DNA from: a virus
Virus genome (UHGV): UHGV-0091736
DNA length: 64,000 nucleotides
Direction: 5' to 3' (one strand)
Position numbers and translations under genes: made by a program. This document shows, piece by piece, positions 24,493-25,112 of this stretch (position 1 is the first letter of the stretch; the number at the start of each line of letters is the position of its first letter). A model generated the notes under the pieces. That model did no database searches, had not been told where the DNA came from, and saw nothing but the letters and a program-made list of their open reading frames with translations.

Positions 24493-25112
24493 CAAAAGTT
24501 CAGATACAATCGCTACTTGTATCCCGCACCACTACATGCTGCTTACAGTTTCCTGCAAGATCGGACTATATCACCACACTATAGTGTGCCTACTGCTTCC
24601 ATTTAAGTCAATGTTAATGACACCACTTGGCTGTACTTCGAGCTTACGCCCACCCTAGTCTCTGCACTTTCTAAACAGTCTTCCGTTTATAATTAAAGAA
24701 ATTGTAACCTCTCTGAACATTCTCAGCGTTGGTTACCCACTCCAAATTAGATGCCACGTTATTGTCTCTTGTGTGGTCCAAGTGATCAATAAATGGGTAA
24801 TTGTGGGGGTTAGGAACAAAGGCAATAGCTACTAATCGATGCATGTAGAATTTCTTTCTTTGTCCCGTATCCATTCTTAAGTAAACAGTTAAATATCCGT
24901 TGCCATGTCTGGCCCATAAGATAACATTGCCTGTTTTACTATTATAAATCGTACCATCAGGCCGCACCCAATAATTAGATGCACCTTCTATTTGTTTTTC
25001 TTCCATAAAGCCTCCTTGCTCTTGGAAGACTGTCTAGCTTAGCTCAGGATTGGCATATCTTTCGACTTAGCTTTCCCTGAGTTCAATAGGTTTTACATGC
25101 GCAGGTTTGTTT
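24493..25112 (-). mobile_element. Self-splicing intron (probably group I) in the primase-helicase gene, carrying an HNH ORF
   Basis: Exon 1 ends in T (CGT), intron ends in G (TTG); shares conserved blocks with the DNA polymerase intron. Confidence 0.6.
24671..25006 (-). CDS. Intron-encoded HNH homing endonuclease
   Basis: IDHLDHTRDNNVASNLEW motif; AGGAGG upstream of ATG. Confidence 0.65.
   Translation of the reverse strand: MEEKQIEGASNYWVRPDGTIYNSKTGNVILWARHGNGYLTVYLRMDTGQRKKFYMHRLVAIAFVPNPHNYPFIDHLDHTRDNNVASNLEWVTNAENVQRGYNFFNYKRKTV

What the first reader, a model, noticed from the sequence alone, without database searches (positions are those of the whole stretch)
24493..25112. Second intron with HNH endonuclease splits the primase-helicase
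The helicase ORF stops shortly after FTGSRSL, and the 84 residues matching the T7 gp4 C-terminal region (as recalled) are encoded 0.6 kb downstream without an ATG. Joining after CGT (25113) and before TGG (24492) gives ...[18 protein letters not shown]... with the same spacing as the T7 protein, and again exon 1 ends in U and the intron in G. The intron carries an HNH ORF.
Basis: partly seen in the sequence, partly recalled or inferred. Interest (0 to 1): 0.7.

Follow-up and report, generated by a model that had tools for sequence, protein, structure and literature searches.

The report
Group I intron splitting phage primase-helicase
The replicative primase-helicase gene of this E. coli podophage (a Kuravirus) is interrupted by a 620-base self-splicing-type group I intron that carries a small HNH homing-endonuclease gene; this is a real but ordinary kind of phage mobile element.

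Summary
The window is a Kuravirus (SU10/phiEco32-like). On the minus strand, 24493..25112 is a 620-nt insertion with no boundary ambiguity relative to the uninterrupted SU10 primase/helicase gene. Removing it restores a 596-aa protein that is 594/596 identical to SU10's.

The insert has a complete group I (IA2-type) ribozyme:
- a 7-bp P1 with U.G at the 5' splice site
- P3 to P9, with P7.1/P7.2 joined by GUA and no P2
- a terminal G

Rfam RF00028 scores 48.6 bits (E 4e-11), just below the gathering score of 50. Across 17 related introns the core is 97.5% paired, and 21 of 35 pairs show changes on both sides.

The P6a loop holds a 111-aa I-HmuI-like HNH ORF. Its catalytic D74/H75/N87/N96 are intact and it has its own Shine-Dalgarno sequence. 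The C-terminal DNA-binding half of I-HmuI is missing.

The same intron at the same site occurs in metagenomic kuravirus contigs. There the ORF is under purifying selection and changes in helices are compensated.

None of 99 related GenBank phage records carries it, and I found no paper on it. Verdict: a new member of a well-known kind. Splicing and homing are inferred, not shown.

The parts
25113..26648 (-). Exon 1 of the primase-helicase gene (512 codons, ends ...CTT ATG CGT)
   Evidence: Colinear with SU10 gp076 up to locus L001 position 3088. Toprim and DnaB_C domains.
25113..25119 (-). P1 5' strand: last 7 exon bases UAUGCGU; the final U forms the U.G wobble at the 5' splice site
   Evidence: 7/7 pairs with the internal guide sequence (IGS) GCGCAUG. 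Recovered in the MFE fold.
24493..25112 (-). Group I intron (IA2-like), 620 nt
   Evidence: Exact insertion versus SU10. RF00028 48.6 bits, E 4e-11. Covariation.
25096..25102 (-). Internal guide sequence (IGS) GCGCAUG (P1 3' strand), intron nt 11-17. The ACC just upstream (nt 7-9) can pair with exon 2 GGU (P10).
25083..25085 (-). In-frame UGA (intron nt 28-30) that ends translation of unspliced RNA after 9 extra codons (KQTCACKTY)
   Evidence: ORF 25083..26648.
25044..25090 (-). P3 5' strand, J3/4, P4-P5-P5a (GAAA loop)-P4' (intron nt 23-69)
   Evidence: A 29-nt P4-P5 core is identical in 22 IMG/VR contigs.
25026..25037 (-). P6a 5' strand CUAGACAGUCUU (nt 76-87); pairs with nt 431-442 and closes the ORF-bearing loop
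   Evidence: 12/12 pairs. The same-site L037 intron keeps 12/12 with 5 pairs changed.
25011..25017 (-). Shine-Dalgarno AAGGAGG, 4 nt upstream of the HNH ATG
   Evidence: Sequence.
24671..25006 (-). HNH homing-endonuclease ORF, 111 aa, I-HmuI-like short form. Its last 12 nt (including the UAG stop) are the P6a 3' strand.
   Evidence: PF13392 35.3 bits (cutoff 24.8). I-HmuI 1U3E E 4e-12 over residues 1-99 with D74, H75, N87, N96 conserved. 33 synonymous versus 3 nonsynonymous codon differences to orthologues.
24656..24660 (-). P7 5' strand GACUA (nt 453-457)
   Evidence: Pairs with UAGUC at nt 545-549. Invariant in 17/17 family members.
24607..24651 (-). P7.1 (GGGC-GUAA-GCUC), GUA linker, and P7.2 with an extra hairpin GUCA/UGAC (nt 462-506)
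   Evidence: Compensatory changes in L033 and in Proteus phage YP1.
24564..24595 (-). P3 3' strand CAGUAGG, P8 hairpin CACAC-UAUA-GUGUG, J8/7, P7 3' strand UAGUC (nt 518-549)
24503..24559 (-). P9 (GAAA loop), P9.1, P9.2 (nt 554-610)
   Evidence: Two double compensatory changes in P9.2 among orthologues.
24493..24493 (-). Terminal G (omega-G) of the intron
24238..24492 (-). Exon 2 of the primase-helicase gene (84 codons plus stop); contains the counterpart of the T7 gp4 Arg522 region

Best explanation
The primase-helicase gene of this kuravirus is interrupted, between codons 512 (Arg, CGU) and 513 (Trp, UGG), by a mobile group I intron of the phage IA2 type.

Inferred mechanism, step by step:
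1. The gene is transcribed as one pre-mRNA.
2. The last seven exon bases (UAUGCGU) pair with the intron's internal guide sequence (IGS, GCGCAUG) to form P1, with a U.G wobble at the cleavage site.
3. The P3-P9 core folds, and free guanosine bound in P7 cleaves after the U.
4. The terminal G of the intron then occupies the same site, a short P10 (ACC/GGU) aligns exon 2, and the exons are ligated.
5. The result is an mRNA for the full 596-aa protein.
6. Ribosomes on unspliced RNA stop at a UGA 28 nt into the intron. They would produce a 521-aa protein that lacks the last 84 residues, including the counterpart of the T7 gp4 arginine finger.

The loop of P6a carries a separately translated 111-aa HNH enzyme related to the nicking homing endonuclease I-HmuI. 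During mixed infections it most likely nicks or cuts intron-less alleles near the insertion site. Recombinational repair then copies the intron in (homing).

Shown here by computation: the exact insertion, the ribozyme anatomy, covariation, and purifying selection on both the RNA and the ORF. Inferred: actual splicing, endonuclease activity and homing.
For: Exact insertion:
- It is unambiguous and in phase 0 relative to SU10.
- The spliced product is 594/596 identical to SU10 gp076.
- It aligns without gaps to T7 gp4 across the junction.

Ribozyme anatomy:
- RF00028 covers the full model at 48.6 bits, E 4.3e-11.
- The close relative in phage LAMP, whose record annotates the DNA polymerase CDS as joined from two pieces, scores 100.8 bits.
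- All helices P1, P3-P9.2 are fully paired.
- The MFE fold of the ORF-deleted RNA recovers P1, P3, P4, P5, P6a, P9 and P9.1, with z = -4.1.

Covariation across 17 related introns:
- 97.5% of cells are paired, against 27-38% when the partners are slid.
- 21 of 35 pairs have changes on both sides.
- 0/500 shuffles reach the observed values.

Same-site orthologues in metagenomic kuravirus contigs:
- 0/106 substitutions in the 5' ribozyme part, against 11-15% in the ORF and in the last 60 nt of exon 1.
- Every substitution in a helix keeps pairing, with 3 full double compensations.
- The divergent L037 intron keeps P3, P6a and P8 through many compensatory changes.

HNH ORF:
- PF13392 scores above its cutoff.
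- I-HmuI E 4e-12 with the catalytic residues conserved.
- 33 synonymous versus 3 nonsynonymous codon differences.
- A strong Shine-Dalgarno sequence.

Subgroup: absence of P2 plus P7.1/P7.2 joined by G-U-A is the description of phage IA2 introns given in PMC3428280.
Against: - No RNA or protein data exist; splicing is not demonstrated.
- The Rfam score is 1.4 bits below the curated gathering score, so the default Rfam scan reports nothing.
- P10 is only 3 bp.
- The HNH protein is 111 aa, whereas most homologues are 150-195 aa. It lacks the part of I-HmuI after residue 99, so its target recognition and activity are uncertain.
- One orthologue lineage has a change in the otherwise invariant J8/7 GAUAUAGUC motif.
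Confidence: 0.9

Rival explanations
1. The intron is real and splices, but the 111-aa HNH ORF is a truncated remnant that no longer drives homing. The intron then persists by vertical descent and ordinary recombination.
For: The ORF is shorter than nearly all of its 120 best homologues. It stops where I-HmuI continues with its helical and helix-turn-helix DNA-binding part. None of the 99 related GenBank phages carries the intron.
Against: The 111-aa length is kept in most listed members of a 24-member cluster seen on many contigs. Codon differences are 33 synonymous to 3 nonsynonymous. The catalytic D-H...N...N residues are intact, and a strong Shine-Dalgarno sequence is kept. A 65%-identical orthologue (124 aa) sits at the same site in a more distant phage.
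Confidence: 0.2
2. The gene is truly split by an inserted endonuclease gene, without RNA splicing. A 521-aa and an 84-aa polypeptide are made separately and assemble, as in some phage genes fractured by free-standing homing endonucleases.
For: Gene callers and one NCBI TPA record list three separate ORFs (521, 111 and 85 aa). A TTG lies at the very end of the insert.
Against: There is no Shine-Dalgarno sequence before that TTG. The non-coding 284 nt around the ORF are more conserved than synonymous sites and show compensatory changes in helices, which a passive spacer would not. The boundaries fit the group I rules exactly. The break lies inside the conserved DnaB-family motif region, between the GS..L.R segment and the arginine-finger segment.
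Confidence: 0.04
3. The ribozyme is dead and the primase-helicase is a pseudogene in a defective or helper-dependent genome.
For: The Rfam score is slightly under threshold.
Against: Both exons are intact and 99.7% identical in protein to a functional phage's gene. The same arrangement occurs in many near-complete ~75-80 kb contigs from independent samples. The ribozyme is under purifying selection.
Confidence: 0.03

Closest known systems
Group IA2 introns with HNH nickases in DNA polymerase genes of T7-like and SPO1-like phages (Pf-WMP3 intron with I-PfoP3I; PhiI/W31; SPO1/SP82 with I-HmuI/I-HmuII; PMC3428280 and PDB 1U3E)
   Same: Ribozyme class: no P2, and P7.1/P7.2 linked by GUA. The ORF starts in the P6a loop. 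The enzyme is an N-terminal-HNH protein homologous to I-HmuI. The host gene is an essential replication gene and the insertion is in a conserved motif.
   Different: The host gene is the gp4-like primase-helicase, not the polymerase. The ORF is only 111 aa, lacks the I-HmuI C-terminal DNA-binding domain, and ends inside P6a instead of running into P7. No biochemical data exist.
Introns of Kuravirus DNA polymerase genes in GenBank records (phage LAMP MG673519; KarlSchell_Bas89 PQ850613)
   Same: Same phage genus. The P4-P5 core is identical over 29 nt and P9 differs by one base. Same overall architecture. In both records the polymerase CDS is written as joined from two pieces, which implies an intron.
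   Different: Different gene and insertion site, a different internal guide sequence, P2 present, a different P7.1/P7.2 region and a different ORF (or none).
T4 td / nrdB / sunY introns (classic IA2 phage introns; from established knowledge)
   Same: Self-splicing IA2 core with P7.1/P7.2 between P7 and P3'. The ORF is looped out of a peripheral helix. There is an early in-frame stop after the 5' splice site.
   Different: Those carry GIY-YIG (I-TevI, I-TevII) or a different HNH (I-TevIII) and sit in nucleotide-metabolism genes.

Membership tests
Group I intron (Rfam RF00028) | Score at or above the curated gathering threshold (50 bits) | tested here: not met
   48.6 bits, E 4.3e-11, full-length model match; not reported in gathering mode. 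The alignment contains a 343-nt ORF insert in P6, has no P2 counterpart, and has a 58-nt P7.1/P7.2 insert. I take these to depress the score. The ORF-less relative in LAMP scores 100.8 bits.
Group I intron | P1 helix formed by the 3' end of exon 1 and an internal guide sequence, with a U.G pair at the 5' splice site | tested here: met
   UAUGCGU/GCGCAUG, 7/7 pairs, last exon U paired with G; found by the MFE fold.
Group I intron | Conserved core helices P3, P4, P5, P6, P7, P8, P9 in the canonical order, with the P3/P7 pseudoknot | tested here: met
   All present and fully paired. Across 17 relatives 97.5% are paired and 21/35 pairs have changes on both sides.
Group I intron | Guanosine as the last intron nucleotide | tested here: met
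   The intron ends ...CUUUUG at 24493. The boundary is fixed by the intron-less allele.
Group I intron | Removal restores an intact host gene | tested here: met
   596 aa, 594/596 identical to SU10 gp076.
Group I intron | Autocatalytic, guanosine-dependent splicing | not testable with these tools
   Needs in vitro transcription or RT-PCR.
Subgroup IA2 | P7.1 and P7.2 between P7 and P3', linked by G-U-A (criterion as stated in PMC3428280) | tested here: met
   GGGC-GUAA-GCUC (P7.1), then GAA-GUA, then P7.2 with loop AAGU. Compensatory changes in L033 and YP1.
HNH endonuclease, HNH_3 (PF13392) / I-HmuI-like | Profile match above the curated cutoff | tested here: met
   35.3 bits against a cutoff of 24.8.
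HNH endonuclease, I-HmuI-like | Catalytic Asp-His, Asn and metal-binding Asn of the beta-beta-alpha-metal motif | tested here: met
   D74, H75, N87 and N96 align with the same residues of I-HmuI. The residue roles come from my knowledge of the 1U3E structure paper.
HNH endonuclease, I-HmuI-like | C-terminal helical and helix-turn-helix DNA-binding domain (I-HmuI residues ~100-174) | tested here: not met
   The ORF ends at residue 111 and the alignment stops at residue 99. Most homologues are 150-195 aa.
Homing endonuclease (functional definition) | Site-specific cleavage of the intron-less allele and intron homing | not testable with these tools
   Only indirect support: purifying selection and presence at the same site in divergent phages.
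Intein | In-frame insertion translated with the host protein | tested here: not met
   The host frame hits UGA 28 nt into the insert. The ORF inside has its own start and Shine-Dalgarno sequence.

The most novel reading that the evidence does not exclude
Kuraviruses share a pool of modular IA2 ribozyme cores that has been re-targeted repeatedly to new sites in replication and packaging genes. The evidence is a 29-nt P4-P5 segment identical in 22 viral contigs and in introns at four or more different sites, and at least five different break points in the primase-helicase alone. In this reading, the minimal 111-aa I-HmuI-like enzyme, which lacks the usual DNA-binding domain but is under clear purifying selection, works in an unconventional way. 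It could be a low-specificity nickase, or it could depend on a partner or on the RNA.
Probability: 0.15. Interest if true: 0.5.

Novelty: new member of a known kind. Interest (0 to 1): 0.3.

Why it matters
Correct annotation: public records and gene callers list this gene as three unrelated ORFs, including a "truncated" helicase, whereas it most likely yields one normal 596-aa primase-helicase.

The case adds the gp4-type primase-helicase to the list of phage replication genes colonised by group I introns. It also shows that kuraviruses, which are used as therapeutic and model coliphages, carry a heavy and variable load of such elements. This genome has three introns plus a probable intein.

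The short HNH form is a compact candidate nickase. The many intron-plus and intron-minus relatives make a convenient natural system for studying homing and site switching.

None of this changes current concepts.

Tried and rejected
- The default Rfam scan (gathering thresholds) of the window returned nothing. The intron appears only with E-value thresholds.
- An exact 30-nt exon-intron junction search in IMG/VR found nothing.
- A distant BLASTN of the intron against 50,697 phage records found only short core matches. No record has the intron at this site.
- Literature searches for introns in Kuravirus/phiEco32-like phages or in primase-helicase genes found no description.
- Intein was rejected: there is a stop in frame and the ORF is separate.
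- A split gene with independent translation of the C-terminal piece was rejected as the main reading: there is no ribosome-binding site, and the spacer RNA is structured and conserved.
- I tested whether the window's three introns are recent copies of one another. They are not: only about 70% identity over short stretches. The similar P1 targets AUGCGU and AUGCAU are therefore probably coincidental.
- A promoter/terminator scan of the region gave nothing above shuffled expectation.
- Profile and PDB sequence searches could not confirm that the PhoH insertion is an intein.

Full report
**What the window is.** Megablast of 24000-26700(-) finds 99 phage records, almost all Escherichia phages of the genus Kuravirus (SU10, ES17, phiEco32-like), at 97-98% identity. 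Nearly all of them cover only 77% of the query, because about 620 bases in the middle are missing from them. All features of the finding lie on the minus strand.

**Checking the observation.**
- The ORF 25083..26648(-) encodes 521 aa and ends ...FTGSRSLMRKQTCACKTY*.
- A 111-aa ORF lies at 24671..25006(-).
- The frame 24238..24492(-) encodes [11 protein letters not shown]...ASPW, with no ATG.
- BLASTN against the uninterrupted SU10 primase/helicase (NC_027395 gp076, 596 aa) aligns window 25113 to SU10 locus base 3088 and window 24492 to base 3089. The insertion is therefore exactly 24493..25112, 620 nt.
- The flanking bases differ (exon ...CGT | AAAC...TTTTG | TGG...), so the boundaries cannot be shifted.
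- Joining the exons gives a 596-aa protein that is 594/596 identical to the SU10 protein.
- This protein aligns to T7 gp4 (5IKN, 6N7I; E about 1e-31) without a gap across the junction: GSRSLMR|[11 protein letters not shown] against GSGALRQLSDTIIALERN.
- By my count on that alignment, the break follows the counterpart of T7 Arg493, in the DnaB-family motif H4 region. It precedes the counterpart of Arg522, the arginine finger (role taken from established knowledge of gp4).

**What the insert is.**
- With E-value thresholds, Rfam's Intron_gpI model matches 24542-25162(-) over its whole length. The score is 48.6 bits against a gathering score of 50, with E 4.3e-11 in 1 kb and 2.7e-9 in the whole window.
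- The default gathering scan therefore reports nothing. In the alignment the model must skip a 343-nt ORF in P6, has no P2 to match, and must skip 58 nt between P7 and P3'. I take this to account for the shortfall.
- Reading the sequence against that alignment and against relatives gives a complete structure. Numbering is by intron position, where position p equals window coordinate 25113 minus p:
  - P1: exon UAUGCGU with internal guide sequence (IGS) GCGCAUG (nt 11-17), with U.G at the splice site.
  - No P2.
  - P3: 23-29 with 518-524.
  - P4: 33-38 with 64-69.
  - P5/P5a: GAAA loop.
  - P6 and a 12-bp P6a (76-87 with 431-442) that closes the ORF loop.
  - P7: GACUA (453-457) with UAGUC (545-549).
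  - P7.1: GGGC-GUAA-GCUC, followed by a GUA linker.
  - P7.2: AAGU loop and an extra hairpin.
  - P8: CACAC-UAUA-GUGUG.
  - P9: GAAA loop; then P9.1 and P9.2.
  - Terminal G at position 620.
- A 3-bp P10 (ACC, nt 7-9, with exon-2 GGU) is possible.
- The MFE fold of the ORF-deleted RNA recovers P1, P3, P4, P5, P6a, P9 and P9.1, with z = -4.1 against shuffles.
- Absence of P2 together with P7.1/P7.2 joined by G-U-A is how PMC3428280 describes subgroup IA2 phage introns.

**Comparative support, family level.**
- The 29-nt P4-P5 core occurs exactly in 22 IMG/VR contigs. It also occurs in the DNA-polymerase introns of kuraviruses LAMP and Bas89, whose polymerase CDS is written as a two-piece join in GenBank.
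- The ORF-less LAMP intron scores 100.8 bits with RF00028.
- I aligned 17 such introns with ORFs removed (alignment A1) and counted pairs for the P3, P4, P5, P5a, P7, P8 and P9 helices of the window intron. 97.5% of cells are standard pairs, against 27-38% when the partners are slid by 1-3 columns. 21 of 35 pairs have changes on both sides, and none of 500 shuffles reaches the observed values.

**Comparative support, same-site orthologues.**
- The HNH protein belongs to a 24-member cluster. It is found on kuravirus-sized contigs (about 75-80 kb) from Logan, ENA, JGI and one NCBI TPA metagenome assembly.
- In the contigs I fetched it sits in the same place, between a 521-aa and an 85-aa ORF.
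- Compared with these orthologues, the window differs at 0 of 106 positions in the 5' ribozyme part. It differs at 11-12% in the ORF and at 13-15% in the last 60 nt of exon 1.
- In the 3' ribozyme part every substitution inside a helix preserves pairing. There are three full double compensations: one in P7.1 (G-C to U-A) and two in P9.2 (C-G to U-A and A-U to G-C). The remaining changes fall in loops or single-stranded stretches.
- A more distant phage (L037; its HNH is 65% identical) has an intron at the same codon with the same IGS. Its P6a (12/12 paired) and P8 have been rewritten but are still fully paired.
- The RNA structure is therefore under selection, which is not expected of a mere spacer.

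**The ORF.**
- It matches PF13392 HNH_3 at 35.3 bits against a cutoff of 24.8.
- It aligns residue for residue (1-99) with I-HmuI, the nicking homing endonuclease of the SPO1 DNA-polymerase intron (PDB 1U3E), at E 4e-12. D74, H75, N87 and N96 are conserved.
- It ends at residue 111, so the C-terminal 75 residues of I-HmuI are absent. Most homologues are 150-195 aa and carry NUMOD4 and further domains.
- Even so, codon differences to orthologues are 33 synonymous to 3 nonsynonymous, and AAGGAGG lies 4 nt before the ATG.
- The last four codons and the UAG stop form the 3' strand of P6a. L037 shows the same arrangement.

**Most likely mechanism.** Transcription through the gene is followed by guanosine-initiated self-splicing, guided by P1 and P10, which yields the mRNA for the 596-aa primase-helicase. 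The in-frame UGA at intron nt 28-30 stops ribosomes on unspliced RNA. The HNH enzyme is translated from its own start and promotes homing into intron-less alleles during mixed infection. The anatomy, covariation and selection are shown here. Splicing, nuclease activity and homing are inferred from what is known of IA2 phage introns and I-HmuI-type enzymes.

**Rival readings.**
- Functional intron with a decayed endonuclease. This is possible because the protein is short, but the selection data argue against it.
- A truly fractured gene with two polypeptides. There is no ribosome-binding site for the 84-aa piece, and the spacer is conserved and structured.
- A dead gene. The exons are intact, and the arrangement recurs in many near-complete genomes.
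- An intein is excluded by the in-frame stop.

**Known or new.**
- Group I introns with HNH nickases in phage replication genes are classical (T4, SPO1/SP82, T7-like PhiI/W31, Pf-WMP3).
- Kuravirus polymerase introns are implied by the two-piece polymerase CDS in at least two GenBank records.
- None of the 99 related GenBank records holds this intron at this site.
- The metagenomic copies are annotated as separate ORFs.
- My literature searches found no description of introns in kuraviruses or in gp4-type primase-helicase genes.
- It is therefore a new member of a known kind, of modest interest.

**Seen in passing.**
[quoted passage not shown] It also has an intein-like in-frame insertion in the P-loop of the PhoH-like protein and several free-standing HNH genes.
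- Relatives carry introns at other positions of the same primase-helicase gene.
- The three introns of the window are not recent copies of each other.

Noticed in passing
window 12485-13091 (-): A third group I intron (607 nt) splits the DNA polymerase gene. SU10 Pol aa 1-564 map to 14783..13092 and aa 565-614 to 12484..12335. Exon 1 ends AUGCAU and pairs with the internal guide sequence (IGS) GUGCAU, and the intron ends in G. It carries a 131-aa HNH_3 ORF (12605-13000). The site is between His and Asp of the ...MH|DEGQ... motif. RF00028 matches only the 3' part, at 27.5 bits.
   Followed up: partly
window 53249-54022 (+): A 774-nt insertion, exact relative to SU10, splits the terminase large subunit gene. 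RF00028 scores 45 bits, and P1 is GAGGAU/GUCCUC. A 192-aa ORF (53436-54014) runs through P7' and P9 and has no Pfam hit, though it contains an H-x-x-x-H...N-like stretch.
   Followed up: partly
window 16188-17906 (-), insert about 16735-17710: The PhoH-like ORF is continuous (572 aa) but contains a roughly 325-aa in-frame insertion, absent from SU10, inside the P-loop: APAG|CVDKDTEF...IFVTGN|CGKTF. It has the hallmarks of an intein: Cys at position 1, a terminal Asn and Cys at +1. The insert has no significant Pfam, NCBIfam or PDB sequence match (only chance-level PDB hits, E > 0.05).
   Followed up: partly
L003 2800-3539 (phage VTCCBPA_211); L033; cluster 2: The kuravirus primase-helicase gene is interrupted at several other positions in relatives. 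There is a 740-nt intron-like insertion after about codon 416 in VTCCBPA_211, sharing the same P4-P5 core and unannotated. Contig L033 has two insertions. Fragment lengths of 260, 275/312, 340 and 373 aa occur in other genomes.
   Followed up: partly
L002 3344-4180 (phage O18-011): An 837-nt insertion with an HNH ORF and a group I-like 3' core (RF00028 31 bits; 84% identical to window intron nt 442-555). It sits 7 nt into the DNA polymerase exonuclease-subunit gene, directly after the primase-helicase stop codon.
   Followed up: no
window 40343-40416 (-): A tRNA gene scores 60.1 bits (RF00005, gathering score 29) in the E-value mode of the Rfam scan. It was not listed in the gathering-mode scan of the same window.
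   Followed up: no
window 21306-21830 (-), 6100-6570 (-), 4777-5289 (-): Further ORFs lie in stretches that did not align to SU10. One is a 174-aa HNH_3 ORF beside the dCTP deaminase gene. One is a 156-aa Cys/His-rich HNH-like ORF between the exonuclease and dNMP-kinase genes. One is a 170-aa ORF that resembles a DNA methyltransferase by eye (NPPY-like motif) and was not tested.
   Followed up: no
window 25113-25172 (-) versus L032-L036: The last 60 nt of exon 1 differ by 13-15% between intron-carrying genomes, and exon 2 by about 2%, while the adjacent 106 nt of intron are identical. This sharp discontinuity could reflect selection on the ribozyme, or gene conversion and homing tracts.
   Followed up: partly
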